Shown here: positions 21,291-37,115 of the stretch, piece by piece
Layout: each line of letters opens with the position of its first letter
Position numbering within the stretch: the first letter of the stretch is position 1
The notes under the pieces: generated by a model
Databases searched by the model: none
What the model was told of the DNA's origin: nothing
Seen by the model: the letters and a program-made list of their open reading frames with translations, nothing else
Made by a program: the position numbers and the translations under genes
Virus record (IMG/VR): IMGVR_UViG_3300037827_000187
Coordinates: 2,026-66,025 of that record
DNA from: a virus
Lineage: Duplodnaviria > Caudoviricetes
DNA: 64,000 nucleotides
Direction: 5' to 3' (one strand)

Positions 21291-23081
21291 TCATGGATAG
21301 CGCTCCGCGAAGCAATCTACCTCACCAGTAGAGGATACATTGGCGGCTGCGGCTGTGTCGGCGGCAATTTGGATCGAGAATCCTGCACCTCCAACCGCAC
21401 GATTAAGGGTAACAATATGGGGCTGGCCAGTCATGGTGCCGACCAGGGAGCAGGAGAGAGCATAGTTGTTATCTGGTAGCTGACCGTCCCAATTGATCTG
21501 GGCCGAAGTGCAGGTTGCCCCGATTGAACCAGCAGTTGGGCAACTGCCCCCAAGCGTGCCCACTATAACCTTTCTTGCGGAACTCGCGAACTGCCCGATG
21601 GTTGATGTAACTTGGTTTGTTGAATTCGCGAGAAGATATGGGCCAACGCTGTAGGTATTGAAATACTGCGGACCAATTATAGTGTCAGCAGGCTCGGCAG
21701 TACAACCAGCATTGACGTTTCCGATATGCGTCCCATACTTGAACAGATTTGTACTAGTCCCGGAGATATACTTGTTGGCGAGAAGCATATTTGAACCGGA
21801 ATCAATAATACGCACGCCATCGATTTGATTGCCTGTCACTGAGGCTTCGGTATTGAACGTATTGCCCATCAGGAAGGCGTTGCCTAAAATATTACACGAA
21901 GTGCCATTGTAACCATTGATAACTACGTTGCTTTGCGTGTTCTCACAGGGAAGAGAACCACTTCCACTCCCTCCAGAAGCACATACACCCACGCTCGCGA
22001 TTGCTGTAAACCCATTACCAAAGAGGAACAATCCGCCATGCAGGAACGCCGCGAGGCTTGAATCTGAATCTACATTTGCTAGTACTTGCGCTGCATTGTT
22101 ATTTGAGGAATCCGAATCAATCAACCAAACAACGGAATTGGTTGTCGTGAGGCCGTTCCCAGAATTTTGTTCAAAGAACGAGTGATTAATATGAAAGTCG
22201 GTAGTGTTGCGGATGACCAATCCATCACCATTAAGTGAACGATTGAATGCTACGCGATCTAATCTTCCGCCTTGTGCTTGATTGGCCGTCGTCGTACTTG
22301 TGATGGTGGCATCGTGACTGCCACATTCGACGAAGGATGAGGCCTGAATAAACATATGGTCACGCGCGCCGCCCGAGGTATCGACGGAAAGGCAGACGGT
22401 GGAAGGGTTGGTTGGATTATTGCCATTGAGTTGGATATCGTGAATCTCGACGTTCGCTCCATCGATGGAGACCATCGTCGTGAGGTTCGTCGAATTCGCT
22501 TGCTTAATCACTACCGCTTGGTTAGTCAACGAGAGTACATCTTCGTTTACACTTGACGGAATACCATTAATTGAAGCTCCGGTTTTGAGCGTGATCGGAG
22601 CGGTTTGAATCCACGTTCCGCCTTGAATGAAGTCCAAAGCATGATAGGTATTAATCGTCGGTGCGGTGGAGATCGTAAGTCCACAAGCTTGGTTAACCTT
22701 AATTCGCCCAGGAACTGCGCCAAGCACCGCATCTGCACCCACAATATGCGCGCCGCAATCGGTACCGCCAATAGGCGCAACCGAGTCGGCATAGACTATT
22801 CCTTCTATATTGGCGGCACTGACCGTACCGGTAAAAAGTGCAGTACCTGAAACTGTTAGCCCGGCGATGGTTGGGGCTACGCCAAGCACCATTGGACCCG
22901 TGCCTGTGAAGGTACCAAGGGCAGTTCCATTGAGAGTCAGGCCGGATGTAAAGGTTACGGCTCCATTGAAAGTATTATTACCTGTGAAGATATTATTGAG
23001 CGATAGCCCTGGCTCTACAACAGTTTGGCCAAAGGCTGCTGCACCCAGAAGAAGTATCGTAGCTAGAAGTCTTTTGATCAT
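21291..23081 (-). CDS. Beta-helix spike/adhesin-like protein with N-terminal signal peptide
   Basis: MIKRLLATILLLGAAAFG|Q; N/G/D-rich beta-helix-like repeats. Confidence 0.6.
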   Translation of the reverse strand: MIKRLLATILLLGAAAFGQTVVEPGLSLNNIFTGNNTFNGAVTFTSGLTLNGTALGTFTGTGPMVLGVAPTIAGLTVSGTALFTGTVSAANIEGIVYADSVAPIGGTDCGAHIVGADAVLGAVPGRIKVNQACGLTISTAPTINTYHALDFIQGGTWIQTAPITLKTGASINGIPSSVNEDVLSLTNQAVVIKQANSTNLTTMVSIDGANVEIHDIQLNGNNPTNPSTVCLSVDTSGGARDHMFIQASSFVECGSHDATITSTTTANQAQGGRLDRVAFNRSLNGDGLVIRNTTDFHINHSFFEQNSGNGLTTTNSVVWLIDSDSSNNNAAQVLANVDSDSSLAAFLHGGLFLFGNGFTAIASVGVCASGGSGSGSLPCENTQSNVVINGYNGTSCNILGNAFLMGNTFNTEASVTGNQIDGVRIIDSGSNMLLANKYISGTSTNLFKYGTHIGNVNAGCTAEPADTIIGPQYFNTYSVGPYLLANSTNQVTSTIGQFASSARKVIVGTLGGSCPTAGSIGATCTSAQINWDGQLPDNNYALSCSLVGTMTGQPHIVTLNRAVGGAGFSIQIAADTAAAANVSSTGEVDCFAERYP

Positions 23082-24253: not shown

Positions 24254-24511
24254 TTAATCGGTAGAGACTGGTTTCCACGCAGGCGCAATCTGTTGAATAG
24301 GCCGACCCCTTCGCCTGTCGACCACCTCGTGGTCCCCGTGGGTTTTCATGCAGTGCTCACACCAGATAGTGCCGTCGGCATACGTTCGGCAAGCCTTGCG
24401 TACCTTGCGACACACATGGGGGGCTGGGTAGACTTCGGTCATGTTGACGTTCAGGGGCATTCGCCGGTTAGGCGAGGGCACTCGACGATCGATGATCTTA
24501 ATTGAGGGCAT
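24254..24511 (-). CDS. Small basic Cys/His protein
   Basis: HVC...C...WCEHC...H; start MPSIK overlaps the upstream stop. Confidence 0.45.
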   Translation of the reverse strand: MPSIKIIDRRVPSPNRRMPLNVNMTEVYPAPHVCRKVRKACRTYADGTIWCEHCMKTHGDHEVVDRRRGRPIQQIAPAWKPVSTD

Positions 24512-24843
24512 TAGCCTGCTGCTACCATTGGTTGGATCCAATAGTTAATTGAACCTGCGCCAGGATTAAAGATTCTAATTCGATCATGCTGGGCAGTGAG
24601 TTGGTAGACCGCCGTCACGCCAGATGGTATGCGATAGTCAGTAGCAGCTGCGGCGGGCATCCCCGAGTTGCCGAATCTAATATTAATATCTCCGTTGGCA
24701 TTGATTGCAAACAAGGAGTTCTTTTGGCCAGCGAGAAGTTCCGCCGTAGAGGTAGTACCTCCTAGCGTGGCGCTAAGATCCGCAGTATTGGTATTGGCAG
24801 TTGCCCCACCAATTGGATTGAAAATTGCTGCAAATGTTGACAT
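24511..24843 (-). CDS. Small beta-rich hypothetical protein
   Basis: AGGA RBS; 110 aa. Confidence 0.6.
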   Translation of the reverse strand: MSTFAAIFNPIGGATANTNTADLSATLGGTTSTAELLAGQKNSLFAINANGDINIRFGNSGMPAAAATDYRIPSGVTAVYQLTAQHDRIRIFNPGAGSINYWIQPMVAAG

Positions 24844-24853
24844 AGTTAAAGTC

Positions 24854-27800
24854 CTAGTTAGTGAGTACTGAACCTGAAGTCATCTTACCGCCTTGAATAC
24901 TATTGGTATTGGAAGGCACGGTTGTAAGAGGAGCAATCGCCACTCCCTCAACGATGTAAGCACCGCTTGTCCCGTTGAATGCTGGAGTCTGGGCTACGCC
25001 CGCCCCACCTGAGAGGACTTGGTACTCGGCAGAATTGCCTACGCCGTCTGCGGCTCCTAGCGTCCAAGGTGCGGTCGCAGTCGTGGCACTGCCAAGCAAA
25101 CACGCTGCCCACACAGATTCATTGCCCAGTGGCGGAGTAATGTTGGCCGCTGTCTGGTTGCAAGTGCTTGCCGCGCCGGAGTTTGACCCAACAGCGTTGA
25201 AAGTAGTCGTTCCGCCGGTCTTGTCATTACCCGAGAACTCTCCTCCCAACACGATTGAAAAATTGTTACAATCGCTTGCTCCGGTGAAAGTTGCCACGAA
25301 TGGATCTAGGGTAGTATCAGGCGCAATCGCTACAAACGTAGCCCCCCAACTATTCGATCCCGTACTAGCGGGCGCAATTCGTTGCGTGATAGTCCAGCCC
25401 GGAGAGGTTAAGGTGATGCCGCTGATCGGGCTTGCTGTCGGATGGCACTGGGCAAAGAAAACCACGGCATCCCCGACTGCGTTTGCTGCACAGGAAAATG
25501 AGCCTGAGCCTGAAGCAGCAAAGAACTTATTGGCTGGGACGCATCCATTCGGGACATAGGCCATGACGGGCGTGGTAAAAGTTTGATCGTTGCCGTAAGC
25601 TGTGCCGACTGAGTTTGTAGCCTTGGCTCGATAGTGATAGGTCGTTCCGGGAGAAAGTCCGATAAGCGAGCTATTCCACGGGGTTACCGTGCCGTCTGAA
25701 GTGCAGGGTGCCGTGGGATTAGAACTGAGTCCGTAGCACGTCCCTTCCGAGGTCACTGCCGCGCAACCTCCAGTACAGACATAGCTATTGCCCACGATGT
25801 TGACCGAGGTCGCTTGTAGGAAGGAGGTCGTTGTGCTTGTGGTCGCCGTGGGCAACGTAACTGCTGCGACGGTGAATGTCGCTGTCGCTGTTGTGCTGTT
25901 GTCAGTGATTGTTTCGGTGGCATTCGTCGATCCCGCAGTGAGCACCGCTGTTGCCGTGGTGTTCGAGGTTATCGTGGCTGTCCCGAGACTCGCCCCTGTG
26001 CCTCCGCTCTCACTAAATAGGTTGCTGGTCGTGTAATTCCCATTCCCTGTATCCGTCTGCCAAAGCGTGTTGGTTCCGGTCATAGTCAGTGTGGGCGTGG
26101 TGTTTGCCGACCCCGAAGTGGGAGAGATAACCAAGGTTGCTGCGGACACCGAAATCGTGGTACTGATCGAGTCAGTGGTATCTGTGATCGTCAGCGTTCC
26201 CGTGCCCGAGCCGGTTGTGATCTGAAGAGTTTCAGAGGTTGAGGAACTGTTCGACTTGCTAACCAGGGTTGCCCCGGTCACTCCCGAAATCGAGAATGCC
26301 GTGCCGCCCGTCCAAGAAGTACCGCTGCCCGTTAGTGCCACGGCAATATTCTTGCTGTGCTGAGATGGGATTATGGCGGGAGTGGCAAAGAAGCTGGCAC
26401 CGGCTGATGCGAATTGATACGCCCCGGTATCCCATGTGCTGCCGCGAGCGTTCTCAGTGATCGCAGGGCAAGTCAGCTTGTGGTTTGTGGTGTTGTAAGA
26501 ACAGGCAAAACCAGTCCCACTTGAGCAGGCGGTCCCAGCAGCCGCATTAAGCCCGGTGATCGTTGAGCAAACAGAAGAAGCATTCCCCCCGGCGTGGACA
26601 GTTGACACCGATCCGGTTTGAGGGGCAAAACCGTTGGCATCATTGTAGCCTTGCCCATTGGCAGTCGAGAGCGTCTGTAGAATGTCATTTGTGAATGGGG
26701 CTGGCGTGCTGCATACGCTTCCATTTGTGCAGATAAATCCCGCCGTGTCCGAACCGATTCCGTGATTGTTGCCGAAGAACACTGTCGCTGGACAGTTAAA
26801 ACTACCATTCGGAGGGCCGTCGCAAGAACTTCCCGAAGAGAAATTAGTGCCATTGCTACACAAGTTGGTGTCTTGTCCGCACTCAATGGTGTTGTTGAAA
26901 ATGTAGTAGGTGCCGTAATTCACATTGTTGTGACCGACAGGACCGATCCCAGAAAAACCAACGTTGTTAGCATAGTTCACGTTATTGAAGGCGTACATCA
27001 CGTTGCCCGTGATGCTGCTGCCAATGTTGTTATTGAACCACATTCCTCCGCCTGATCCCGCTCCCTGTGCCGGAGACAGACTGAAGGCATTCGTAAGCAA
27101 ATTGTTGTAAATGAATTGAGTGGTACACTCTGCTGGGCCTTGAATGGATAGCAGGTTAATGTGTCCAATCACACCTTGCCAAGCATCGCTCTGGGGAGAG
27201 TTATTGAACCAGTTGTCATGCCAATTACACGCAGCCGCACTTGAAGCATCTGCGACCCAGGCAAGATAATTGTTGTAGATACAGGAAACATGACCATAAA
27301 AATAATGAATCATGTCCTTCGTGGTATCAGACCCATCAGCTATATTGTCATGGTAGCAACTGCCGGTTGAGGAACTGTCGTCACTGTATCCAACAGGGCT
27401 GTCGTAGTCACCATTAGCTGCTGTATCGTGCGACCATCCGTGGACATACATACGTTGAAAGTGGGAATTTTGAGCGCCCGTGAAATGAAACAAGGTGCCT
27501 GAAGTATTACTATTCCCGGCCCCGTTTCCTATGGTCTTTGACCCAGTGACCTCGATGTTGTCAAAGACGGTGTAGTTTCCCCAGTCGCATAATAGAGCGC
27601 AATTGGATGGATTGGCTTGACCGTAAGCACCGATAAAGCTAAGGTTCTGCATATTGAAGATCGGTCGCGCCCATGATCCCCCAACAAACCAAGTAATATC
27701 AAACCCGATGTACATGAGATGACTAGCATTGCCGCTCCATCCCGGTGCCCAATATATTCCTAGCTCAGAGTTCGTCCAGGTATCCCCGCCGCGCATTATC

Positions 27801-28078
27801 ATCCCCGTACCCGCAGCAGGTGTTACTGATGCGCAGGTAGCCGTGCACCCAAACATACCTGGAACATGAAGAAATGGGGTGCTTTCCGACGTGCCGTTGT
27901 TGCTGTCTGAAGCACCGGCCTGCTTGGAGGCGTAATAGCAATTGGTCACACCCATGCTGGACAGTGTGACGTTGAAAGGTTGCGCCGTTCCGTAGTTTGC
28001 CCCAGTCGGGCACGTGCCCCCCGCACCAAAGGCAGGCAGAGCGAATAACAGAAACGGAATGAGTCGAAGTAGTTTCAT
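24854..28078 (-). CDS. Large Cys/Thr-rich beta-helix + Ig/Fn3-like protein with signal peptide
   Basis: MKLLRLIPFLLFALPAFG|A; SDSNNGTS..TPF, WDTGAYQF, GLSPGTTYHYRA.ATNSVGTAYG. Confidence 0.7.
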   Translation of the reverse strand: MKLLRLIPFLLFALPAFGAGGTCPTGANYGTAQPFNVTLSSMGVTNCYYASKQAGASDSNNGTSESTPFLHVPGMFGCTATCASVTPAAGTGMIMRGGDTWTNSELGIYWAPGWSGNASHLMYIGFDITWFVGGSWARPIFNMQNLSFIGAYGQANPSNCALLCDWGNYTVFDNIEVTGSKTIGNGAGNSNTSGTLFHFTGAQNSHFQRMYVHGWSHDTAANGDYDSPVGYSDDSSSTGSCYHDNIADGSDTTKDMIHYFYGHVSCIYNNYLAWVADASSAAACNWHDNWFNNSPQSDAWQGVIGHINLLSIQGPAECTTQFIYNNLLTNAFSLSPAQGAGSGGGMWFNNNIGSSITGNVMYAFNNVNYANNVGFSGIGPVGHNNVNYGTYYIFNNTIECGQDTNLCSNGTNFSSGSSCDGPPNGSFNCPATVFFGNNHGIGSDTAGFICTNGSVCSTPAPFTNDILQTLSTANGQGYNDANGFAPQTGSVSTVHAGGNASSVCSTITGLNAAAGTACSSGTGFACSYNTTNHKLTCPAITENARGSTWDTGAYQFASAGASFFATPAIIPSQHSKNIAVALTGSGTSWTGGTAFSISGVTGATLVSKSNSSSTSETLQITTGSGTGTLTITDTTDSISTTISVSAATLVISPTSGSANTTPTLTMTGTNTLWQTDTGNGNYTTSNLFSESGGTGASLGTATITSNTTATAVLTAGSTNATETITDNSTTATATFTVAAVTLPTATTSTTTSFLQATSVNIVGNSYVCTGGCAAVTSEGTCYGLSSNPTAPCTSDGTVTPWNSSLIGLSPGTTYHYRAKATNSVGTAYGNDQTFTTPVMAYVPNGCVPANKFFAASGSGSFSCAANAVGDAVVFFAQCHPTASPISGITLTSPGWTITQRIAPASTGSNSWGATFVAIAPDTTLDPFVATFTGASDCNNFSIVLGGEFSGNDKTGGTTTFNAVGSNSGAASTCNQTAANITPPLGNESVWAACLLGSATTATAPWTLGAADGVGNSAEYQVLSGGAGVAQTPAFNGTSGAYIVEGVAIAPLTTVPSNTNSIQGGKMTSGSVLTN

Positions 28079-30300
28079 TGTCCCTTGAAAGCTATGGCTG
28101 AAGCTGAAGCTTTATCGCCGCTGCCGGAATCGGTCCAAGTTGGTGCGGTTCCTGTAGTCGTATTGATTGCCGCCGCATAACCGGAACCGAATCCCGCAAG
28201 GAAATCTTCAAAAGTCGTGTACCCAGCCCCGCCCGTGATGGCGGTAATGTTGTTATTTTGGGGCTGGATTGATTGAATGATCACATCCTTGGTTCCGTTG
28301 AGCGTGAGTGCAACACCGGGGCAACTAGTACCTGTGCAGGTTTCCGTGGTGATCTTGCCTGCTGCGTCGTAAAGTACAGTACTACCGGACCATGCTAGCT
28401 CCCATACGTCGGCACCCCAATTTACCGAAGCCGAACTTGTGGAAGCCAGGTTGACCGTGAGGCTAGTCCCACCGGAGGCGGGAGCAAGGTTGTATATGCA
28501 GTAATTTTGAAAGTTGATTCCCGCGCTGGGATTCCAATCGGTATAGCAGCCGCCATCATTAATCCACTGCCCTCCGCTGATTCCCGAAATAGACGTGAAC
28601 ATCGTTGGGGCATTGTTGTTGTTTATGCTTAGGGTAACGACAAGCATGTGTCCCGTACCAATCGCCGTAAGCCCGGTCAAAGCGCAAGTGAGCGTATTCG
28701 AGCAGGTATGATCGTAGCTCTTATGCTGAATGACGGACCATGTTCCCGCACCTGAACTCGCGTTTGTGGACATAAGCGCCATACCGTTCGCTATGAATGA
28801 ACCGACGCCAGAAGATGTATTGGTGTCGTGCGTCCATGTCCACGTTTGCGAAGCCGTTGACGTTGCGTTATAGAAATCCCCGACCCCAGCATTCAAGTCG
28901 CAATGAGATGGATTGCTGATGGTTGTGTAGTAGCAATTCTGTTGGTTAGCCCCGCTGGGCGCGGACAATCCCGTATAACTGTCCCACTGCGACCCGATCT
29001 GCCCAATCATCACTTCGTTCTGGTTTGTTGGGGTGCCACTAAAACTGGTGACGTTGCCCGACCCGCCAGTCTTGTTCTGTTCTCCAAAGGTTTGCGCTAA
29101 TCCGCTAGGTCCGAATCCAATATCCAAAGGATTGGTGTTACCTGCTCCGCAAATATCGTGCATCCAGAAGGAAGTGCCATTTCCTCCGCTCGATCTGGGA
29201 TTCATTGTCCAAGTTACGCTGTAAACTCCTGGTGAAACGCCCGAAGCTAACCACGCATTCCCTACCGCATTGAAATCATCGGTCGCTTGGCTAAGGGTAG
29301 TGCTGCCAATTTGCTCGTAAGTATTCGTTCCGTCACTTGCAGATGTGGCATAAGCGCAATCCCCGCTAAATCCGCTACCATTGCAGCCCGAGTTACTCAA
29401 CACCGCGATGGCATTCCCGGTGATGGGGTATTTAAGGGCTACCGTCGAGGCTGTCTCGTTCTGCGTATTGTCGTGCTGGACGTAGCAGACACGCACACCA
29501 GACGGAGGGGCCGAACCCGCCGAAGCCGATTTAAAAGCCACTGAGGCAGCAATATAATTGGTGGTTGGAGCCACCGTAAAGGTTGGAGAAAAACCTACGG
29601 TGTCATTATAAACCCCGTATTGCACGCCCGAGCCGAAGGTATCAGCAATCATGGCCGAGCGCAACGTCCATGGCATATTTGTTTGATTAGTCGTACTAAT
29701 CGAAGTGAGCTGGGTGCCATTGGTCACCGCTCCGAATTGAAAAACCAAATCATTCACGGCGGTGAGGGCAGGCAGCGCGCCAGAGGTAACAGAAGTACCA
29801 CTACTCGCCTGACAGGCAACTTGGTCGAGGGCGCCAATATTGTAAAATTCATAAAGTTGCAACTGAGGATGATGGCGAGCAGCTAGAGTGACAGCGACCT
29901 CCTGTACTCCCGCACGGATTCCGGACACGTACCACACTTCTCCCACTACCCCGTTGGTCGCATCGGTGCAGCTTGTGGCCTTGATGTAGGTATTACCGCC
30001 AATGTTGTCCGACCATGTCACAGTTTGCGCTGTTGTATCGTAGCGCAGCCAGAGTAGAAGCGTGTTGCCTGAAATCGTTGGATTGGGCAAAAAGCTATCT
30101 ACGACTGTGATCGTATCCGTGATACCTGGGGGCGGTGCTTGCGTCACCGGCATTCCAGCACCATTATTAGCAAACGCCGGAGCAACATTAACCGCGCCAG
30201 GCTTCGTTGATCCAACAGGAAAGGTTGATCCCGCAGGAATCGTGCTCTGCGCAAAGAGAAAGCTAGCTGACATTAACACAAATGTGAGAAGCCTTTTCAC
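28075..30300 (-). CDS. Three-module beta-sandwich protein with signal peptide
   Basis: GTG start overlapping the upstream TAG: MKRLLTFVLMSASFLFA|QST; three ~200-aa repeats. Confidence 0.65.
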   Translation of the reverse strand: MKRLLTFVLMSASFLFAQSTIPAGSTFPVGSTKPGAVNVAPAFANNGAGMPVTQAPPPGITDTITVVDSFLPNPTISGNTLLLWLRYDTTAQTVTWSDNIGGNTYIKATSCTDATNGVVGEVWYVSGIRAGVQEVAVTLAARHHPQLQLYEFYNIGALDQVACQASSGTSVTSGALPALTAVNDLVFQFGAVTNGTQLTSISTTNQTNMPWTLRSAMIADTFGSGVQYGVYNDTVGFSPTFTVAPTTNYIAASVAFKSASAGSAPPSGVRVCYVQHDNTQNETASTVALKYPITGNAIAVLSNSGCNGSGFSGDCAYATSASDGTNTYEQIGSTTLSQATDDFNAVGNAWLASGVSPGVYSVTWTMNPRSSGGNGTSFWMHDICGAGNTNPLDIGFGPSGLAQTFGEQNKTGGSGNVTSFSGTPTNQNEVMIGQIGSQWDSYTGLSAPSGANQQNCYYTTISNPSHCDLNAGVGDFYNATSTASQTWTWTHDTNTSSGVGSFIANGMALMSTNASSGAGTWSVIQHKSYDHTCSNTLTCALTGLTAIGTGHMLVVTLSINNNNAPTMFTSISGISGGQWINDGGCYTDWNPSAGINFQNYCIYNLAPASGGTSLTVNLASTSSASVNWGADVWELAWSGSTVLYDAAGKITTETCTGTSCPGVALTLNGTKDVIIQSIQPQNNNITAITGGAGYTTFEDFLAGFGSGYAAAINTTTGTAPTWTDSGSGDKASASAIAFKGQ

Positions 30301-33300
30301 TATGGATTCACGCTCACGATGTAAGGTATATCTACCACTGTTGTCGCTGGGGTAAAGGCAATGTTCGCAATAGCAGGACTGGCGGGTAAAGCGGCGGCTG
30401 ATGCAGTGCAAACATCTGTTGTATCAATACCAATATTGTGAGCGGTTTGACTACCTCCACCACCAAAGGTTGCAGCACCACTAGCTGCCGCAGTTGTGTT
30501 AAGAAGGACATATGGAACAAAGGTCGATGCTATGTCTGTGCAAAATGCTTCATAATAATAACCGGGAACCATTGTAAAAGCGGTTACAGAAGTGTTTGCT
30601 ACCTGCCCCGCTGTCGCAGTTGATTGTTGACCGCAGTCCCATACTGGAGCGGCACTGATAGTCGTACCATTGAAAGAATAGATACCAACATGATAGTGAT
30701 CAGCAGCTATGCTAGTTTGGACGCCAGTCAAGCAAGTCGTACCAAGCTTTCGAGTTACATCATTGTAGAATCTGTACCAATGAGTATTAAGGGCAGTATT
30801 GGCGGCTACACCACCAGTGGTTACATTCTCACCAGGAGAAGTTCCTGGGGCGCCAACCACGAAGGAGCACTTTGATAAACATCCAGCAGGAGCAACTCCT
30901 TCATCTACTGTTCCATTAATAATGTGGAAATTGCCAGTAGCATCTGCGTACCAACCTGCATCTGTTGAAGCGAGGCCAGAATAGATAGATCCACCTATAA
31001 CATATTCACCACCACCACAGGTACTTCCACTTGGACAACCAATATTGGGGCCAGTACCAACGATGACATCTCCTGTAGAGTTAAATGCTTGGGCGACAGT
31101 TGTGTCTCCTGTCAATCCTTTGTCATCGCATTCTAAGGTTATACCAGCTGGAATCGTACAAATAATACCTACTGTACTTGGAGTGCCAGTAGATGCGGTT
31201 CTATACACTGCATAATAATCAGCATTCGTCACCGCCGTCCAAGTGACCTTGGGCCAGTTAGTGCCATTGATAGTAGTTGGTCCAGTAAACGCGGTCGTTG
31301 CACCTAGCGCGGTGCGGGTAGCTCCGACTAAAGCAACTATTCCATATGTATAAGTTGCTCCGGTACCAGAGCCTCCACCAAACACAACAGTAGGAGCAGA
31401 AGGATTGCTTAGGGTATTGGTTTGAACACCCCAACTCGCTTGATAAGGAACCTGGACAAATGAACTAGCTGGAATACCATTACAAGTGTCTACAGCATTG
31501 TTGTGTGCAATGTTATAAATACTTGAGCCATTTGGCCCATTGGTCTCAAGGATTTGATGACTCCAACAATCTTGTGAAGTGGCGGCAGCAATTGTTACCG
31601 TGCCCCCATTGGGATTTGGGCTGTACCAAGCTGTACCAGACCGGATATCATAAGGTGAGTTTTGGGAAACAGAAGCCGTTGCAGCAGTTACGTTCTGAAT
31701 GTTTAAAGCAAACTGAGTACCTGCGGTCTGCGTGATGATCTCATTGCCCTGACTGGTAATTTGAAAGATAGTTGGACCTCCGTTAACATGGTAATCAATC
31801 ATGTTACCCGTGAATCCACTGGGGGCGTTTATGCCTTCCATTGTACCGTTGGTACTAAAGGTAGTGGGGCCGGAGGCGCCCGCATTAAGATATGTTTGTG
31901 GAAAGCAGGTCGTGCCCGTGCAAGAAGATCCACCAGCAGTTGCAGGAGCGCCAGTTACTGTGAGACCTGGACTAGAAGCTGCACCGGCAGAGGTAAAGGT
32001 ACCGGTTGAAGAAGCATTGACAGTGGTAAATTGCCCTGAGGATGGGGTGGTAGATCCAATAGGTCCAGGCGCCGCAAACGTCGTGCCATTCAAGAATGCG
32101 GCATTTAGATTAGGAACCGCTGTAGTACTTGTTACTGTAAAAGGAGGTGTTCCAATTGCTACTGTTGAAACCAGGACAGGAGCCGACAAGTAGTTACTAG
32201 ACACAATCGCATTACTAGTAGTGCCAGCGATTGCAGGCCAGGTCAAGGTGGCAGTGCCACTGGTGGATCCTGCGCCAGTAATGACGCAACTTACTGAAGT
32301 TGCGGTACCGCAAGATTCCGTGCCAGCAAAAGACAAGTTGCCTGCTGCCGTCACATTGGCTTTAAGCGTTCCTGGAGTATATGTAGTACCAGAAGTGGAA
32401 CCTCCGGAATAGATACGCAAGATATCTCCAGTACCTGAGACATCGTAAATTATCTCGCCAATACCCCCTGTAGAGGTTCCAACTGCACCGACAAGTAAAG
32501 CAACAGATGTATTATTGTTGGTTGAATTGCCGTTTTTGATTACTTGTGGGGCAGTGAGATTAGCAGTTTCAACTCCTGTTCGAGTGATACCATCACCAGT
32601 CGCTGCCTCTGTCATTGTGGTTATAGCAGCGGAGCCCGTAAGTTGATCTTCAGATAATGATTTACCAGTAAAAGTAGTGGTGCTGCTGGGGGTGACGTTG
32701 GCTGCGCCAGAATCAGCAATGCCACCGTTAGCATCTCCAACCACACTATCACCATTAGTGAAGGAACCTGAGGCTGTAACGATAGCCGTGTCAGTTCCAA
32801 TAGATGAGGTGATATTAGCTGGAGTAGCGTTTTGAATTGAAATAGCACCGGCTGCGGTAACATGTGCCGGGGCTACGGCAGTCATTGCACCACCACCACT
32901 TGAAGTTACGCAAGTAGCACAACCCAGTTTACTGGTTACAAATGCAAGCGGGGCATTCACCCCAAAGTACTCTTCAGTTCCAGGAGAACCAGTTGGATTA
33001 CCCCAAAGGGTATCGGCAAGGGCACTTCCCAAGGTGGCGGTGACGGCTCCGGTGGAAGCGCTGTTGCTGAGAAGGGCTCCATCTCCAGTAAAGGATGTCA
33101 CACCTGAAGAAGTACCACTCGACCAGGTACATGCTGAGATATTAGCCGAAGGAGTGGCGCAACTAAGGAATTGCCCGCCCGAAGGGGCAACGGTGGGGGG
33201 CTGCAATAGATAACTAGTAAATGAAGCTGAGAGAGGCGCGGTCCATCCGAAAACATTGCTGCCCACTACCGGATTGGTGGTGTTGCCAGTAAGTTGGAAG

Positions 33301-35885
33301 GATCCAGCATGCGTGCCATCACTTAAAGCTGAAACCGGTCCAGCAAAGGAACCAGCACCAGCAGCCGTCACTGTGGCATTGGTACCGCAGATATTGAGGG
33401 TTCCCCCAGTAGCCGTGGCAGTTAGAGTGCAGGCGCCACTGGTGACTCCATCGACATGGAATGTATAACTAGCAATCGAGGGAGAAAAGAAATCACTACC
33501 AGTGAGTTTGCTTCCAACCAATAGCCCAGATCCAGATGTGCAACTGTAAATTGGATTCCCCGAAGTGTCCGTCTTGTACATTGTCAAGGAATTATCAGTG
33601 CAAGCAACGGTATTTTGGTCATCCAAAACGGAATTGGTACTACCACTTGGTTGCTGAACAATAGCTTGGACGCTTAAACCTGAGGTAGTAAAACCATCAT
33701 TCATGATATGAACGAGGTTTGTGCCAGAGAAGTTAGCAACATTAGGCATGCCAAGAAGACTGGTAATACTAACGCCATGAGTATTGTGGTTAGCGCCAAT
33801 CTCTATAGCATCTATGCAATGTTCTAGGTGCCCTCCTTCAAGAACCATGGTTGAGTAATCGTTACCAGAAACACCATCGCCATCTATATAAACACAGGCG
33901 TTGCCTTGATTTCCAGCGGTGTAACTGCCATTGGTAATTGAGTATCCATGCACGCCTTTTCCACCACCAGTGGCATAGTAGATTCCGGCCGTAGCAGGAG
34001 TGTTACCAGTTGAAGAACCAAGATCATTGGTACGGAGGTCATCATAAGGGCCGCTCTCAGTTGCTCCTCGTTCGACAGCCAGGGCGATGCCCGCGCAGGT
34101 GACGCAAAAAATTCCGCGAGTGCCGGAGTGCTCGCCTGCATTGACGTTCTGAACACCAATCAAACTAGGAAGATGCTCTCCGTTAATCTGGATGTCAAAC
34201 ACATGCATTCCAAAGCTTTGTGAGGCCTGGGAGCCAGGATTCGCGACGGTTGGAAGATAAGGCCAGTTGGGACTACCGAATCCAATGAGGGGAGTGTAGA
34301 GGAATCCTGTGGCAGAGCCACCATTTGAAGTTGTGCTGGGAACTGACACAGTAAACGTATTGGCAGTCGGAACAGCCACAACCGTGCGCAACATGTTGTT
34401 GTTGGCAGTTGCGGATGCACTGATCCCGACTAGCTCACCAACATAGATATTTTGACTGTTTGCAGGGCCGCCCGTTGAAACAAGGGTCTGGGTGACCGTG
34501 ACGGTCATCGTATTGCCACTAACCGAGGTGCCTGTAATAGTCAAGGGCCGAACTGGAAATGGCGTAGTACAATTAACAAAAGGAGAAGGAGTATGAAGAC
34601 CTGTACAAGGAAGGATTACACTGTCTGTTTTACTGGTCCCGATAATCCCATAGAATTGATTAGGAAGAATGATGGCCGGAGTGCCCACAGTAGAGGCGGT
34701 ACAGTTGCTTCCGCAACCTCCAGTAAGTGTATTGCCATCTGTGAAGAAGCCAGCAGCAGGGCCATCAATGGCAATATTCACATTTCCAAGCAGGAGTCTC
34801 CCTGGAACTGATACTGCTCCTCCTGTTCCTAAAGCAGTCACACCATATAACATTGTGGTAGGATTGGAGTTTGCTTGCAGACAAACTTGATTGTTAGTAA
34901 ACATTCTGGCATCGAGGACACCAGGGCCATTGGCTGCAATCTCATCTGCCATAGCAAGCTCAATTGCTTCGCAGATGTCACCGGTACCACACGCCCCACC
35001 ACTGAAACTATTGCCAGGACAATATGCACTTACATCACGCCCAGTGTCTCTGGTTGCGTAAGTTGTACTTCCAGTTTGATTTATTAAGGCCAGGCCTTTG
35101 GTTCCAGACGGCAAGCTCCCTCCACCGCCCGTGCCACAATCCGCAGCTGTAGCGCTCAACACACCTGAAGTTTCATGCACACAAAAAGGACCACCGGTCA
35201 TGTTGGTGGTCAGGTTGCCTGTGAAAGATCCGGTTGTAAAAGCACCGGTAGAAGGGGTTGTACCGCCAATAGGACCAGGGGAAGGAAAAGAACTAGTCGA
35301 ACCGTTTAGGGTAACGGATGTTCCTGCAATGGTAATTGAAGGACAGGTTGCGCCAGCTGCACAAGTAAGAGTACCGCCGCTTTGAATGGTTAAAGTAGCT
35401 GCACCGGGGACATTTTCACCCCCCGTGACGGTAGTCACCCCAGTAACACCAAGAGTTCCAGCTACAGTTTGATTATTAACTGCCAGTGTATGAGACCCGA
35501 CAGTGTAGTTAAAATTTGCGTTATCTTGAGTAACCGCGCCACTAGCACCAGCAAAAGGAACGCTGGTACTAGTTAAAGTGCTGCTTCCGGAATACAGGAC
35601 ATTTGCACCAATGAGACCGGTGCTTGCTGGCACCAAGGTACCACTCGCCCCAATCACCAAAGCATTGGTGTTAGTCCCGGCGCCTACTGTACTGAAATTG
35701 GGTGAACCTCCGCAAGCTCCTCCTGAGTCTTGAAGAGTCGTGGCATTTAACCAACTGGCACAATTGTTCGCCACGGGTGAGCCATTAATCTTAGCTCCAG
35801 CCCCTCCACCACCAGAGAACTGGCTTTGACCCAAGGCCAAGCCTGTCAACAGAACCAAACTCGATAATAGAGACTTAATCTTCAT
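30300..35885 (-). CDS. Giant (1861 aa) Gly/Thr/Ser/Cys-rich fibre/adhesin-like protein with signal peptide
   Basis: MKIKSLLSSLVLLTGLALG|QSQ; repeated PGPIG.TTPS.G.FT; many Cys pairs. Confidence 0.65.
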   Translation of the reverse strand: MKIKSLLSSLVLLTGLALGQSQFSGGGGAGAKINGSPVANNCASWLNATTLQDSGGACGGSPNFSTVGAGTNTNALVIGASGTLVPASTGLIGANVLYSGSSTLTSTSVPFAGASGAVTQDNANFNYTVGSHTLAVNNQTVAGTLGVTGVTTVTGGENVPGAATLTIQSGGTLTCAAGATCPSITIAGTSVTLNGSTSSFPSPGPIGGTTPSTGAFTTGSFTGNLTTNMTGGPFCVHETSGVLSATAADCGTGGGGSLPSGTKGLALINQTGSTTYATRDTGRDVSAYCPGNSFSGGACGTGDICEAIELAMADEIAANGPGVLDARMFTNNQVCLQANSNPTTMLYGVTALGTGGAVSVPGRLLLGNVNIAIDGPAAGFFTDGNTLTGGCGSNCTASTVGTPAIILPNQFYGIIGTSKTDSVILPCTGLHTPSPFVNCTTPFPVRPLTITGTSVSGNTMTVTVTQTLVSTGGPANSQNIYVGELVGISASATANNNMLRTVVAVPTANTFTVSVPSTTSNGGSATGFLYTPLIGFGSPNWPYLPTVANPGSQASQSFGMHVFDIQINGEHLPSLIGVQNVNAGEHSGTRGIFCVTCAGIALAVERGATESGPYDDLRTNDLGSSTGNTPATAGIYYATGGGKGVHGYSITNGSYTAGNQGNACVYIDGDGVSGNDYSTMVLEGGHLEHCIDAIEIGANHNTHGVSITSLLGMPNVANFSGTNLVHIMNDGFTTSGLSVQAIVQQPSGSTNSVLDDQNTVACTDNSLTMYKTDTSGNPIYSCTSGSGLLVGSKLTGSDFFSPSIASYTFHVDGVTSGACTLTATATGGTLNICGTNATVTAAGAGSFAGPVSALSDGTHAGSFQLTGNTTNPVVGSNVFGWTAPLSASFTSYLLQPPTVAPSGGQFLSCATPSANISACTWSSGTSSGVTSFTGDGALLSNSASTGAVTATLGSALADTLWGNPTGSPGTEEYFGVNAPLAFVTSKLGCATCVTSSGGGAMTAVAPAHVTAAGAISIQNATPANITSSIGTDTAIVTASGSFTNGDSVVGDANGGIADSGAANVTPSSTTTFTGKSLSEDQLTGSAAITTMTEAATGDGITRTGVETANLTAPQVIKNGNSTNNNTSVALLVGAVGTSTGGIGEIIYDVSGTGDILRIYSGGSTSGTTYTPGTLKANVTAAGNLSFAGTESCGTATSVSCVITGAGSTSGTATLTWPAIAGTTSNAIVSSNYLSAPVLVSTVAIGTPPFTVTSTTAVPNLNAAFLNGTTFAAPGPIGSTTPSSGQFTTVNASSTGTFTSAGAASSPGLTVTGAPATAGGSSCTGTTCFPQTYLNAGASGPTTFSTNGTMEGINAPSGFTGNMIDYHVNGGPTIFQITSQGNEIITQTAGTQFALNIQNVTAATASVSQNSPYDIRSGTAWYSPNPNGGTVTIAAATSQDCWSHQILETNGPNGSSIYNIAHNNAVDTCNGIPASSFVQVPYQASWGVQTNTLSNPSAPTVVFGGGSGTGATYTYGIVALVGATRTALGATTAFTGPTTINGTNWPKVTWTAVTNADYYAVYRTASTGTPSTVGIICTIPAGITLECDDKGLTGDTTVAQAFNSTGDVIVGTGPNIGCPSGSTCGGGEYVIGGSIYSGLASTDAGWYADATGNFHIINGTVDEGVAPAGCLSKCSFVVGAPGTSPGENVTTGGVAANTALNTHWYRFYNDVTRKLGTTCLTGVQTSIAADHYHVGIYSFNGTTISAAPVWDCGQQSTATAGQVANTSVTAFTMVPGYYYEAFCTDIASTFVPYVLLNTTAAASGAATFGGGGSQTAHNIGIDTTDVCTASAAALPASPAIANIAFTPATTVVDIPYIVSVNP

Positions 35886-36444: not shown

Positions 36445-36462
36445 TTTAAACTCCTAAAATAG

Positions 36463-36547: not shown

Positions 36548-36550
36548 AAT

Positions 36551-37113: not shown

Positions 37114-37115
37114 AA

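What the first reader, a model, noticed from the sequence alone, without database searches (positions are those of the whole stretch)
21291..35885. Fibre/adhesin-like genes in the virion operon carry Sec-type signal peptides and are Cys-rich
Seen: four large proteins (596, 1074, 741 and 1861 aa) begin with basic-hydrophobic-small-residue leaders: MIKRLLATILLLGAAAFG|Q, MKLLRLIPFLLFALPAFG|A, MKRLLTFVLMSASFLFA|Q, MKIKSLLSSLVLLTGLALG|Q. They have many closely spaced Cys and are translationally coupled in the operon between terminase and portal. Established: tailed-phage fibres normally fold in the cytoplasm without signal peptides. No other obvious tail fibre gene is in the window. Inference: receptor-binding or decoration proteins may be exported, disulfide-bonded outside the cytoplasm and added to particles at lysis; alternatively they remodel the infected cell surface.
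Basis: partly seen in the sequence, partly recalled or inferred. Interest (0 to 1): 0.8.

Follow-up and report, generated by a model that had tools for sequence, protein, structure and literature searches.

The report
Phage fibre-like proteins with export signals
A soil phage, and a whole clade of its relatives, put ordinary secretion signals on the large sugar-binding or sugar-cutting proteins that should be its tail fibres, so these proteins probably fold outside the cytoplasm, which is not how tailed phages are known to build their host-recognition parts.

Summary
Four large, translationally coupled late genes (596, 1074, 741 and 1861 aa) between terminase and portal of a 66-kb SU10/phiEco32-like podovirus begin with Sec/signal-peptidase-I-type leaders. 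My leader heuristic flags these four of 20 minus-strand ORFs, plus one doubtful hit. They hold 2.0-2.8% Cys, against 0-0.6% in the other large virion proteins.

New evidence:
- Mature Cys counts are even in 13 of 14 such proteins from five genomes, and the Cys lie in consecutive close pairs.
- Q follows the leader in 3 of the 4, and in 28 of 41 related non-capsid leaders.
- Leaders recur in 16 of 26 near-clade loci but 1 of 45 far-clade loci. The far clade has leaderless proteins at the same locus that share C-terminal domains.
- The first 600 residues of the 1074-aa protein, leader included, belong to a Terriglobales secreted-protein family. In 2 of 2 inspected genomes that family sits in an exopolysaccharide biosynthesis cluster.
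- None of five complete genomes has a leaderless fibre candidate.

Export and oxidative folding are well supported indirectly. Attachment to virions is untested. I give about 0.42 to exported fibres joined to tails at lysis and about 0.30 to free exported depolymerases or lectins. Five literature searches found no description of this.

The parts
30300..35885 (-). 1861-aa leader-bearing fibre-like protein. The leader is residues 1-19 (35829-35885) and ends ALG|Q. The mature N-terminus QSQFSGGGG belongs to N-terminal class II. 42 Cys in 21 consecutive close pairs.
   Evidence: pair test p = 0.0002; N-terminal class shared with L004_490, L005_368, L018_624 and others. No Pfam, PHROG or PDB sequence hit.
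28075..30300 (-). 741-aa leader-bearing protein with a GTG start. The leader is residues 1-17 (30250-30300) and ends LFA|Q. A Pro-rich linker follows, then beta-sandwich modules at about 63-383 and 515-741. 14 Cys.
   Evidence: 447 homologues; 86 of 150 with leaders. AF2 pLDDT 67.6, above 90 for 515-741. Foldseek BFVD matches to phage 'minor tail proteins', E down to 1.6e-11.
24854..28078 (-). 1074-aa leader-bearing protein. The leader is residues 1-18 (28025-28078) and ends AFG|A. Residues 19 to about 570 are a member of a Terriglobales secreted-protein family with the mature N-terminus AGGTCPxGANY. The C-terminal half is Thr/Ser-rich with an Fn3-like piece and a terminal beta domain. 30 Cys.
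   Evidence: ESM Atlas lead, 0.92 to a DUF1565/Pel9A beta-helix cluster; 101 homologues; 78 of 101 with leaders and the same junction; conserved co-occurring Cys pairs; cellular homologues inside EPS clusters.
21291..23081 (-). 596-aa leader-bearing protein. The leader is residues 1-18 (23028-23081) and ends AFG|Q. The mature N-terminus QT...NxFTGxNTF belongs to class III. Probable right-handed beta-helix. 12 Cys.
   Evidence: only 2 homologues; both have hydrophobic leaders; the Atlas's own model (pLDDT 0.70) gives TM 0.50-0.55 to beta-helix clusters, and the feature search gives 0.89 to a viral Pect-lyase_RHGA_epim cluster. My own AF2 model failed.
23078..24253 (-). 391-aa leaderless protein lying among the four. 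It has 10 Cys, a poly-Gly linker and a C-terminal Cys cluster. Its C-terminal domain (229-391) is a separate small protein in relatives.
24511..24843 (-). 110-aa conserved small protein without Cys, matched in 28 related loci. Role unknown. In relative G001 it sits just upstream of the portal, away from the big leader-bearing genes.
24254..24541 (-). 95-aa small Cys-containing (zinc-ribbon-like) protein, conserved in relatives next to leader-bearing genes.
35875..36159 (-). 94-aa small protein with a CxxC motif. It overlaps the start of the 1861-aa gene by 11 nt. Relatives G002 and G003 have small proteins with similar N-termini (compared by eye, not aligned).
19165..21270 (-). Portal protein (context). 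It starts 20 nt downstream of the 596-aa gene.
   Evidence: (PF23899 SU10_portal, 2.5e-33)
41210..42724 (-). Terminase large subunit (context).
13641..14870 (-). Adaptor (context). In SU10 this is the docking partner of the fibres. It is conserved over its full length in both the near and the far clade.
   Evidence: (PF24175, 25.8 bits, just under the cut-off of 27)
11177..13609 (-). 810-aa nozzle-like protein directly after the adaptor (context). No fibre gene lies between them.
   Evidence: The order was compared with SU10 from passages of PMC9509320. The nozzle identity is inferred from position and was not tested.

Best explanation
The four proteins are made with real Sec-type signal peptides and are carried across the inner membrane of a diderm host, probably a Terriglobia acidobacterium. 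Signal peptidase I cuts them, three of them so as to expose Gln. They fold in the periplasm, where their paired cysteines form local disulfides.

They are glycan-binding or glycan-cutting proteins built from beta-helix and beta-sandwich modules. They are aimed at the host's exopolysaccharide or envelope glycans, and they are this phage clade's counterpart of tail fibres and tailspikes.

Because heads and tails assemble in the cytoplasm, the exported proteins can meet the tail only when holin lesions merge the two compartments, or later in the lysate. P22 tailspikes can likewise be added to finished heads in vitro (recalled).

What each step rests on:
- Shown by sequence: the leaders, the Cys pattern, the clade-wide recurrence, and homology of one protein, leader included, to secreted proteins encoded in EPS clusters.
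- Inferred: export, cleavage, disulfides and the glycan target.
- Speculative: late attachment to the virion.
For: (1) Leaders. The heuristic flags the four proteins plus one doubtful hit among 20 ORFs. There is no RR motif and no lipobox.

(2) The leaders are conserved as a physicochemical pattern, not as sequence:
- Relatives: 24 of 70 portal-strand ORFs of 400 aa or more are flagged in 26 near-clade loci, against 1 of 70 in 45 far-clade loci.
- Homologues of the 741-aa protein: 86 of 150 flagged.
- Homologues of the 1074-aa protein: 78 of 101 flagged, with the conserved junction AF[AG]|AGGTCPxGANY.
- Both homologues of the 596-aa protein have hydrophobic leaders.

(3) The first polar residue after the leader is Q in 28 of 41 non-capsid leaders. 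Q makes up 18% of polar residues in the bodies of all 69 flagged proteins, capsid proteins included.

(4) Cysteines:
- Mature Cys counts are even in 13 of 14 large leader-bearing late proteins of five genomes. My arithmetic gives P = 15/16384 by chance.
- Pair spacing gives p of 0.006 or less in 6 of the 12 that the script's own cleavage sites allowed it to test.
- In the 1074-aa family, Cys 23/47, 78/82, 504/518 and 526/537 are conserved in 63-77 of 72-81 aligned sequences. Each is the other's best co-occurrence partner.

(5) The other large virion proteins hold 0-0.7% Cys.

(6) Fibre role:
- None of the five complete genomes has a leaderless fibre candidate.
- In relatives these genes abut the adaptor gene: G001 42062/42063, G003 24814/24815.
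- The far clade has leaderless proteins with a conserved N-terminus at the same locus. They share C-terminal domains with leader-bearing proteins at 41-55% identity.
- The adaptor is conserved over its full length in both clades.
- The 741-aa model resembles phage minor tail proteins in BFVD.
- Mature N-termini fall into a few conserved classes followed by variable bodies.

(7) Glycan target. Atlas leads point to right-handed beta-helix families. The cellular homologues of the 1074-aa N-domain lie in EPS biosynthesis clusters in 2 of 2 genomes inspected.
Against: - No signal-peptide predictor was available. The leader calls come from a home-made rule.
- The capsid protein of the whole family also has a hydrophobic N-terminus that a loose version of the rule flags (26 loci). 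So a hydrophobic N-terminus alone does not prove export in these phages.
- No N-terminal docking module is common to all five genomes.
- The conserved N-terminus of the far clade's leaderless proteins is not found in the near-clade genomes.
- In the 1074-aa protein the enzyme-like domain begins right at the mature N-terminus, exactly as in the free cellular enzymes. In the 741-aa protein only a linker precedes the binding modules. Neither looks like a classical anchor-first fibre.
- Leaderless far-clade proteins can also be Cys-rich. One has 20 Cys with pair spacing p = 0.005, and two have odd counts. Cys-richness therefore does not require export.
- Pfam, PHROGs and PDB sequence searches give no family for any of the four. 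My AF2 model of the 596-aa protein failed. The beta-helix assignment therefore rests on Atlas leads only.
- Sec export separates the proteins from the compartment where tails are built. No tailed phage is known to me to attach fibres after export.
Confidence: 0.42

Rival explanations
1. The proteins are exported and oxidised as described above but never join the particle. They are free depolymerases and lectins, partly captured from the host's own EPS-processing enzymes. They accumulate in the periplasm late in infection and are released at lysis. There they thin the exopolysaccharide matrix around the burst cell and on neighbouring cells, or strip receptors so that progeny are not trapped. 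The virion recognises the host through its nozzle, its needle or small leaderless proteins such as the 391-aa protein.
For: - The 1074-aa protein's leader and N-domain match a family of about 600-aa stand-alone secreted proteins (101 homologues; 78 with leaders and the same junction). Two named homologues are from Terriglobales, and the family lies in EPS clusters in 2 of 2 genomes inspected.
- The modules of the 741-aa protein occur at the C-termini of leader-bearing bacterial proteins with Ig, Big_7, F5/8-type-C or SBBP domains.
- No docking N-terminus is shared by all genomes.
- Sec topology fits this reading without any new assembly step.
Against: - It leaves five complete podovirus genomes without any fibre or tailspike gene, although far-clade relatives carry leaderless fibre-like genes at the same locus.
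- The genes take up about 19% of the genome. They are translationally coupled to structural genes and, in relatives, to the adaptor. Accessory genes usually sit at module borders (recalled).
- An 1861-aa fibre-like protein is large for a free enzyme.
Confidence: 0.3
2. The proteins are surface-remodelling or exclusion factors of the infected or lysogenic cell. They would be exported adhesins or enzymes that change the envelope to block superinfection or alter host behaviour, like Lom/Bor of lambda or Llp of T5 (recalled).
For: - Relative G001 carries two tyrosine-integrase genes, so the clade may be temperate.
- P. gingivalis phages were reported to carry five unknown genes whose signal peptides obey the Q-rule. 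The authors read them as possible outer-membrane modifiers (PMC10367356, passages read).
Against: - The genes sit inside the late structural operon and are coupled to it. No separate promoter was looked for.
- They are very large, number 2 to 5 per genome and vary greatly between relatives. That pattern fits host recognition better than exclusion.
- The window itself has only a weak fragment of an integrase N-domain.
Confidence: 0.1
3. The hydrophobic N-termini are not working export signals. The proteins would stay in the cytoplasm and assemble on the tail in the usual way, with the N-terminal helix serving as an uncleaved membrane tether or as a docking or assembly element. The cysteines would oxidise only after release.
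For: - The capsid protein of the family also starts with a hydrophobic stretch. Predicted 'signal peptides' on capsid proteins have been reported in other phages (PMC10367356).
- Leaderless Cys-rich fibre-like proteins exist in the far clade.
Against: - The capsid N-terminus is conserved in sequence and is followed by P/D-D. The fibre leaders vary in sequence but keep the n/h/c pattern, small residues at -3/-1 and Q at +1.
- The 1074-aa leader and its junction are the same as in cell-encoded homologues inside EPS clusters.
- A docking element should be conserved in sequence alongside the conserved adaptor. It is not.
Confidence: 0.08

Closest known systems
Tail fibres and tailspikes of SU10/phiEco32-like and P22-like podoviruses
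   Same: - The head and tail chassis is related: SU10/P22-type portal, SU10-type adaptor region, phiEco32-type COOH-NH2 ligases.
- The proteins are large, variable and modular, with glycan-enzyme-like and binding modules, 2 to 5 per genome, in the late operon.
   Different: - SU10 fibres are encoded between adaptor and nozzle and dock on them by their N-termini (PMC9509320, passages read). No leader is mentioned in the passages I read.
- Here the genes lie before the portal, or before the adaptor in relatives. They start with Sec-type leaders, are Cys-paired, and show no docking N-terminus shared by all genomes.
- No sequence similarity to any record in the phage collection beyond a 70-80-residue Fn3-like piece.
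WceF of Pantoea stewartii (exported, tailspike-like EPS hydrolase encoded in an EPS cluster)
   Same: A beta-helix, tailspike-like protein with an N-terminal export signal, tied to an exopolysaccharide biosynthesis cluster and active on that polymer (PMC7949094, passages read). The cellular homologues of the 1074-aa N-domain are likewise leader-bearing and sit in EPS clusters.
   Different: [quoted passage not shown]
- Here the gene is in a phage and the leader is Sec-type with no twin arginine.
- No sequence relation to WceF was tested. Trimer state is unknown.
Signal-peptide proteins of Porphyromonas gingivalis phages that obey the Bacteroidetes Q-rule
   Same: Phage-encoded proteins whose predicted signal-peptidase-I cleavage exposes Gln (PMC10367356; PMC5837995, abstract and one passage). 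That paper also notes capsid proteins with predicted signal peptides.
   Different: - Those are five genes of unknown function, read as possible modifiers of the host surface. The passages I read do not describe them as the fibre set.
- The Q-rule was described as specific to Bacteroidetes, whereas the leads here point to Terriglobia. In a 400-kb sample of one Terriglobia genome, Q directly follows 14 of 59 flagged leaders.
Free (soluble) phage depolymerases and exported phage accessory proteins such as Lom, Bor and Llp, and the Sec-dependent coat proteins of filamentous phages (all recalled, no call)
   Same: Phages are known to release soluble depolymerase, to encode exported envelope proteins, and, in filamentous phages, to route virion proteins through Sec.
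   Different: - Known soluble depolymerases are, as far as I recall, surplus or alternative forms of cytoplasmic tailspikes without leaders.
- Lom, Bor and Llp are small.
- Filamentous phages assemble at the membrane, whereas this is a tailed phage with cytoplasmic head and tail assembly.

Membership tests
Sec / signal peptidase I signal peptide | Short, positively charged n-region followed by an uncharged hydrophobic h-region of at least about 9 residues within the first 25-30 residues | tested here: met
   flags the four proteins. This is a home-made rule, not SignalP.
Sec / signal peptidase I signal peptide | Small or neutral residues at -3 and -1 of a c-region, and no Pro at +1 | tested here: met
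   The sites are A-F-G|Q, A-F-G|A, L-F-A|Q and A-L-G|Q. L at -3 in the 741-aa protein is less typical.
Sec / signal peptidase I signal peptide | Not Tat (no twin arginine) and not lipoprotein (no lipobox Cys at +1) | tested here: met
   Read from the sequences. The n-regions are MIKR, MK..R, MKR and MKIK. There is no Cys at the junction.
Sec / signal peptidase I signal peptide | Actual translocation and cleavage | not testable with these tools
   Needs reporter fusions or N-terminal proteomics.
Virion tail fibre / tailspike (receptor-binding protein) | N-terminal particle-binding domain conserved together with the adaptor or nozzle | tested here: not met
   Mature N-termini fall into at least three classes, and none is present in all five genomes. 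The far-clade N-terminus is not found in near-clade genomes, although the adaptor is conserved.
Virion tail fibre / tailspike (receptor-binding protein) | Homotrimer | tested here: inconclusive
   The one job run gave no verdict. It is reported under Tried and rejected.
Virion tail fibre / tailspike (receptor-binding protein) | Presence in purified particles | not testable with these tools
   No isolate and no proteome.
Virion tail fibre / tailspike (receptor-binding protein) | Structural or sequence kinship with known tail proteins | tested here: inconclusive
   - BFVD Foldseek hits of the 741-aa model to mycobacteriophage minor tail proteins, E 1.6e-11 to 1e-3 but TM 0.2-0.69 on single domains.
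- PDB matches are weak and generic.
- C-terminal domains are shared with leaderless far-clade proteins.
Right-handed parallel beta-helix (pectate-lyase-like) glycan enzymes | Match to a Pfam beta-helix model (Beta_helix, Pel9A-like, Pect-lyase_RHGA_epim) | tested here: not met
   No Pfam family at E up to 0.1 for any of the four.
Right-handed parallel beta-helix (pectate-lyase-like) glycan enzymes | Beta-helix fold | tested here: inconclusive
   - Atlas features: 0.92 (1074 aa) and 0.89 (596 aa) to beta-helix clusters.
- The Atlas's own model of the 596-aa protein gives TM 0.50-0.55.
- My AF2 model failed at pLDDT 38.8.
- A profile of the 1074-aa family finds no PDB sequence.
EPS-cluster-encoded secreted polysaccharide-processing enzymes (functional class of WceF, PslG, AlgL; the last two recalled) | Cellular members encoded inside an exopolysaccharide biosynthesis cluster and carrying an export signal | tested here: met
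   In 2 of 2 Terriglobia loci inspected (L126, L127) the homologue is flanked by Epimerase_2, DUF354, Acetyltransf_6, Polysacc_synt_3, glycosyltransferases, a deacetylase or exosortase EpsH. Leaders are shown.
EPS-cluster-encoded secreted polysaccharide-processing enzymes (functional class of WceF, PslG, AlgL; the last two recalled) | Glycanase or lyase activity on the cluster's polymer | not testable with these tools
   Invariant Asp, Glu and His columns exist in the family alignment. Activity is unknown.
Q-rule substrates (Gln exposed by signal peptidase I and cyclised) | Gln at +1 of the cleavage site | tested here: met
   3 of the 4 proteins. 28 of 41 non-capsid leaders in related loci. 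49 of the 86 flagged homologues of the 741-aa protein.
Q-rule substrates (Gln exposed by signal peptidase I and cyclised) | Host glutaminyl cyclase and pyroglutamate N-termini | not tested
   The host is unknown. No search for a cyclase was made.
SU10 / phiEco32-like (Kuravirus-like) podoviruses | SU10-type portal and adaptor, phiEco32-type COOH-NH2 ligase cluster | tested here: met
   - PF23899, 115.8 bits.
- PF24175, 25.8 bits, just under the cut-off of 27.
- PF14395 in two ORFs.
- The relationship is distant: no DNA match, and the best tblastn identity to cultured phages is 21-26%.

The most novel reading that the evidence does not exclude
A clade of tailed phages routes its entire receptor-binding set through the host Sec pathway. 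The fibres and depolymerases fold and form disulfides in the periplasm. They are mounted on cytoplasm-built tails only after the holin merges the two compartments. This would be a two-compartment assembly pathway not known for tailed phages. It would have evolved in part by capturing the host's own secreted EPS-processing enzymes together with their signal peptides.
Probability: 0.35. Interest if true: 0.9.

Novelty: new variant of a known kind. Interest (0 to 1): 0.68.

Why it matters
Tailed-phage assembly is taught as a cytoplasmic process. If the host-recognition proteins of a whole clade are exported first, the last assembly step must take place during or after lysis. That changes how burst timing, holin function and fibre stoichiometry are understood.

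It would also show a route by which phages gain new host-glycan specificities: taking over the host's own periplasmic polysaccharide-processing enzymes, signal peptide included.

If the proteins turn out instead to be free exported depolymerases, they are still a distinct, Sec-dependent way for soil phages to clear the exopolysaccharide matrix of Acidobacteria. That group is abundant, poorly cultivated, and to my knowledge has almost no cultured phages.

There is a practical point too. The public gene call for the 1074-aa protein starts 41 residues downstream and drops the leader. Features like this can therefore be hidden in automatic annotation.

Tried and rejected
Searches that gave nothing useful
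- Pfam and PHROGs on the four proteins and their small neighbours gave no family. The only rows were two matches to PHROGs of unknown function at E about 0.05-0.09.
- PDB sequence searches with the 596, 1074, 1861, 810 and 409-aa proteins, and with a 65-sequence profile of the 1074-aa N-domain, found nothing. One chance-level row came up at E 0.013.
- AF2 of the 596-aa protein with a 3-sequence alignment gave pLDDT 38.8 and was not used.
- Foldseek of the 741-aa model against PDB gave no match at E of 0.001 or less. The best rows were the PRD1 coat protein at E 3e-3 with TM 0.12.
- VIA-align wide gave Z of 7.1 or less on generic beta-sandwiches, which the tool itself rates as a common arrangement.
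- A homotrimer job on residues 512-741 of the 741-aa protein returned 'no answer'. I draw nothing from it.
- hhalign of the 1074-aa family against the 596-aa family found no relation.
- The phage collection holds no DNA match to the head genes. It holds only 21-26% identical portals, no match to the 1861-aa protein, and only a 70-80-residue piece of the 1074-aa protein.
- The listing of cluster members gave no informative names or accessions for 10 homologues.
- The MAG that holds the one genome contigs portal hit has no homologue of the 741-aa protein.
- Only 5 of 201 and 9 of 201 sampled Terriglobia genomes hold homologues of the 741-aa and 1074-aa proteins. The second tally includes one genome flagged unpublished (G111). 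No other claim rests on it.
- The far-clade leaderless N-termini were sought in the window and in G001-G004 by tblastn and not found. Only two internal or C-terminal domain matches appeared.

Readings considered and rejected
- Tat signals: there is no RR motif.
- Lipoproteins: there is no lipobox Cys.
- Wrong start codons: leaders are conserved in homologues of all four proteins.

Literature
No paper describing Sec-type leaders on tail fibres or tailspikes of tailed phages came up in five searches. Subscription journals are largely outside that library. Supplementary files were not opened. Supplementary Data 4 of PMC10367356 may say what the five Q-rule phage genes are.


Full report
WHAT THE WINDOW IS

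The window is 64,000 of the 66,025 bases of an IMG/VR virus record rated 98% complete. The minus strand carries a late operon in this order: large terminase (41210-42724); about 15 small ORFs; the 1861, 741, 1074, 110, 95, 391 and 596-aa ORFs; portal (19165-21270); scaffold-like protein; major capsid protein; a cell-wall hydrolase; a histidine phosphatase; adaptor (13641-14870); an 810-aa nozzle-like protein; small ORFs; and 525-aa and 1542-aa proteins.

The portal matches Pfam SU10_portal (2.5e-33) and P22_portal. The adaptor matches SU10_adaptor just under its cut-off. The plus strand holds phiEco32-type COOH-NH2 ligases and a sigma-like protein, which agrees with an earlier first-reader note. 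It is therefore a distant SU10/phiEco32-like podovirus. No cultured phage is close: there is no DNA match and portal identity by tblastn is 21-26%.

THE OBSERVATION

One correction: the 741-aa protein starts at a GTG that overlaps the preceding stop by one base.

- Coupling. Gene junctions from the 94-aa ORF to the portal are -11, -1, -4, +10, -31, 0, -4 and +20 nt.
- Leaders. A simple rule (net positive n-region, nine uncharged residues with mean hydropathy of at least 1.7, small residues at -3/-1) flags 5 of 20 minus-strand ORFs of 150 aa or more. These are the four proteins and a doubtful internal-start hit in the hydrolase frame. None has a twin arginine or a lipobox.
- Cysteine content. 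It is 2.0-2.8% in the four (1.9-2.8% counted on the mature chains) and 2.6% in the 391-aa protein. It is 0-0.6% in portal, capsid, scaffold, adaptor, nozzle-like and 1542-aa proteins. Early proteins can be richer, so the contrast holds within the virion module only.

SIGNS OF OXIDATIVE FOLDING

Mature Cys counts are 12, 30, 14 and 42. The cysteines come as consecutive close pairs. In the 1861-aa protein the 21 within-pair gaps cover 17% of the Cys span, permutation p = 0.0002. The test is weaker for the 596-aa (p = 0.12) and 741-aa (p = 0.09) proteins.

Across the window and four complete relatives, 13 of 14 large leader-bearing late proteins have an even mature count. My arithmetic gives 15/16384 by chance.
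- From one search's flagged rows I dropped two capsid proteins, one lipoprotein-like protein, a 237-aa protein on the opposite strand to the late genes, and one DUF3987-like false positive.
- The 1281-aa protein of G004 was not in that table.
- For the 1074-aa protein I used the AFG|A site rather than the script's later site.

In an alignment of 81 members of the 1074-aa N-domain family, Cys 23/47, 78/82, 504/518 and 526/537 are each conserved in 63-77 sequences. Each is the other's best co-occurrence partner, phi 0.65-1.0.

THE TRAIT BELONGS TO A CLADE

A portal search found 71 related viral loci. In the 26 loci with portal identity of 52% or more, 16 hold at least one flagged ORF of 400 aa or more, and 24 of 70 such ORFs are flagged. 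In the 45 loci below 52%, 1 locus and 1 of 70 ORFs are flagged. At least one near-clade flag, in L026, looks like a false positive.

Among 69 distinct flagged N-termini of ORFs of 250 aa or more, 26 are capsid proteins (see 'Caveats' below). Another two have D as the first polar residue; one of those is a mis-set cleavage site on the 1337-aa protein of G004. Of the remaining 41, Q is the first polar residue after the leader in 28 and H in 4. Q is 18% of the polar residues in the bodies of all 69 flagged proteins.

I fetched four complete relatives, two of them with terminal repeats.
- Each has two to five such proteins and no leaderless fibre candidate.
- In G001 nothing large lies between terminase and portal. 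Instead, 1661-aa and 1010-aa leader-bearing genes end exactly where the adaptor gene starts.
- G003 has a 330-aa leader-bearing gene in that position as well as two before the portal.
- G004 has a 149-aa leader-bearing gene between adaptor and nozzle.

WHAT THE PROTEINS ARE MADE OF

The large proteins vary greatly. In a BLAST against ORFs of all related loci, the 596-aa and 741-aa proteins have no hit, the 1074-aa protein has one, and the 1861-aa protein has three short ones. The 110-aa neighbour is conserved in 28 loci.

596-aa protein
- It has two database homologues, both with hydrophobic leaders.
- The ESM Atlas's own model of it (pLDDT 0.70) aligns to right-handed beta-helix clusters at TM 0.50-0.55.
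- Its nearest feature cluster (0.89) is viral and carries Pect-lyase_RHGA_epim.
- These are leads only. My own model failed.

741-aa protein
- It has 447 homologues at E of 0.001 or less. They fall into two modules (about 38-510 and 515-740) that occur alone or at the C-termini of larger proteins.
- 86 of the best 150 are flagged as leader-bearing, most followed by Q. Others are leaderless.
- Four of five larger homologues scanned carry Ig-like, Big_7, F5/8-type-C, He_PIG or SBBP domains.
- With a 119-row alignment, AF2 gives an N-terminal helix, a disordered linker and beta-sandwich domains, the last with pLDDT above 90.
- Foldseek finds mycobacteriophage 'minor tail proteins' and uncultured-phage proteins in BFVD. 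It finds nothing specific in PDB.

1074-aa protein
- Its Atlas lead is a DUF1565/Pel9A beta-helix cluster from Acidobacteriota, score 0.92.
- Its first 600 residues have 101 homologues, mostly about 600-aa proteins. Several sit on contigs of 100-900 kb, and two are named as from Terriglobales.
- 78 of the 101 are flagged for a hydrophobic leader. The junction is nearly the same as in the phage protein: leader ending AF[AG], then AGGTCPxGANY.
- The public gene call for the phage protein starts at residue 42 and so lacks the leader.

LINK TO HOST EXOPOLYSACCHARIDE LOCI

The one genome-contig hit to the portal is a 3.2-kb contig of a Terriglobia MAG, which is weak evidence for the host. Taking that class as the centre, 9 of 201 sampled genomes hold the 1074-aa N-domain. 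One of the nine is flagged unpublished and is used only in this count.

I inspected two loci on long contigs. In both, the homologue lies among UDP-GlcNAc 2-epimerase, DUF354, a GNAT (Acetyltransf_6), glycosyltransferases and a flippase-type transporter (Polysacc_synt_3 in L126, a weak MatE match in L127). A polysaccharide deacetylase or exosortase EpsH is also present. That is an exopolysaccharide biosynthesis cluster.

Such clusters commonly encode an exported enzyme that trims their polymer. WceF of Pantoea is a tailspike-like example (PMC7949094, passages read). The phage protein therefore looks like a captured or shared version of the host's own secreted EPS-processing enzyme, leader included.

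Q AT +1

The Q-rule was described as specific to Bacteroidetes (PMC5837995, abstract). I sampled 400 kb of one Terriglobia genome. Of 288 ORFs, 59 are flagged. Q follows directly in 14, and an 'AQ' follows within a few residues in about ten more, judged by eye. Q after the leader is thus compatible with a Terriglobia host, but it does not settle the host.

VIRION PROTEINS OR FREE PROTEINS?

For a fibre role:
- There is no other candidate in five genomes.
- The genes are tightly coupled to structural and tail genes.
- The far clade carries leaderless proteins with a conserved N-terminus at the same locus.
- Leader-bearing proteins share C-terminal domains with those far-clade proteins at 41-55% identity over about 93-123 residues, and a longer region at 31%.
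- The adaptor is conserved over its full length in both clades.
- Mature N-termini fall into a few recurring classes followed by unrelated bodies.

Against a fibre role:
- No N-terminal class is present in all five genomes.
- The far-clade N-terminus is absent from near-clade genomes.
- The 1074-aa and 741-aa proteins have no anchor-like N-terminal part.
- Their modules are typical of secreted bacterial proteins.
- Leaderless far-clade proteins can also be Cys-rich.

In SU10 the fibre N-termini dock on adaptor and nozzle (PMC9509320). Nothing comparable could be shown here.

I therefore rank the readings as follows:
- Exported proteins that are mounted on tails once holin lesions join the compartments: 0.42.
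- The same exported proteins acting free: 0.30.
- Surface remodelling or exclusion: 0.10.
- Leaders that do not work as export signals: 0.08.
- Something I have not thought of: the remaining 0.10.

CAVEATS
- All leader calls rest on my own rule.
- The capsid protein of 26 loci has a hydrophobic N-terminus that the rule flags when the cleavage filter is relaxed. It is conserved in sequence, followed by acidic residues and free of Cys, so it is a different thing. It still warns against reading hydrophobicity alone as export.
- Fold assignments for three of the four proteins are leads, not tests.
- The host is inferred from a few taxon labels.

NOVELTY

Five literature searches found no account of Sec-type leaders on the fibre or tailspike set of a tailed phage. 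The nearest reports are the Q-rule signal-peptide genes of unknown function in P. gingivalis phages (PMC10367356, passages) and WceF. I file the finding as a new variant of a known kind, namely phage glycan-targeting proteins. It has a real chance of pointing to a two-compartment assembly route.

Noticed in passing
window 17439-17498 (first 20 codons of the capsid gene 16479-17498, minus strand); also 26 related loci: The major capsid protein starts with a hydrophobic segment that is conserved in sequence (pattern M-x-x-K/R-F/L-L-S-L-V-G-I-x-x-G-F-G) and is followed by P/D-D-V-V-T-V. It holds 0% Cys. A relaxed signal-peptide rule flags it. A paper on P. gingivalis phages also reports capsid proteins with predicted signal peptides and supposes that a prohead protease removes them (PMC10367356).
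   Followed up: partly
window 24511-24843 (minus strand): The 110-aa protein is the best-conserved gene of this region, at 31-62% identity in 28 related loci of both clades. It has no Cys and no known family. In G001 it sits directly before the portal, away from the big leader-bearing genes, so it may be a head or neck part rather than a fibre partner.
   Followed up: partly
window 23078-24253 (minus strand): The 391-aa protein has no leader but 10 Cys, a run of eight Gly, and a C-terminal CxxC...CxCCxC cluster. Its C-terminal 160 residues are a separate 160-190-aa protein in relatives. Its N-terminal half looks, by eye, like the beta-sandwich module of the 741-aa protein.
   Followed up: partly
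window 35875-36159 and 24254-24541 (minus strand): Small Cys-bearing (CxxC, zinc-ribbon-like) proteins of 94 and 95 aa sit immediately upstream of blocks of leader-bearing genes. Relatives G002 and G003 have similar small proteins in the same place.
   Followed up: no
window 3005-3379 (minus strand); G001 55390-58143: After the 1542-aa gene the window has only a 124-aa ORF with a weak match to an integrase N-terminal SAM-like domain. Relative G001 has two full tyrosine-integrase genes at the corresponding place. The clade may be temperate, and this member may have lost or broken its integrase.
   Followed up: partly
window 15467-16177 (minus strand): In the cell-wall hydrolase ORF the Hydrolase_2 domain fills only residues 129-235. 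The first 110 residues are Ser/Pro-rich and contain a hydrophobic stretch that the leader rule flags from an internal start. The start is uncertain. A signal-anchor type of endolysin is possible.
   Followed up: no
window 14837-15457 (minus strand): A histidine-phosphatase (His_Phos_1) gene lies inside the structural module between the hydrolase and the adaptor. Genes with similar N-termini sit in the structural modules of near and far relatives (by eye).
   Followed up: no
L044 1118-1897 and L055 1021-1824 (far-clade loci): Far-clade phages without leader-bearing fibres carry a 259-267-aa leader-bearing protein. Q follows the leader, and there is a 'TAGHC' motif that, from memory, resembles the His site of trypsin-like proteases. 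It may be an exported protease.
   Followed up: no
window 24854-28078; database record P0155: The public gene call for the 1074-aa protein begins at residue 42 and so omits the signal peptide. Homologues show that the longer form, whose ATG overlaps the upstream stop by 4 nt, is the real one.
   Followed up: yes
window 36190-37538 (minus strand): Several small late ORFs of 84-140 aa share a D-G-G-x-W-D motif, and the gene models overlap there (37116-37538 against 36850-37197). An earlier first-reader note mentions such a family. I did not study it.
   Followed up: no
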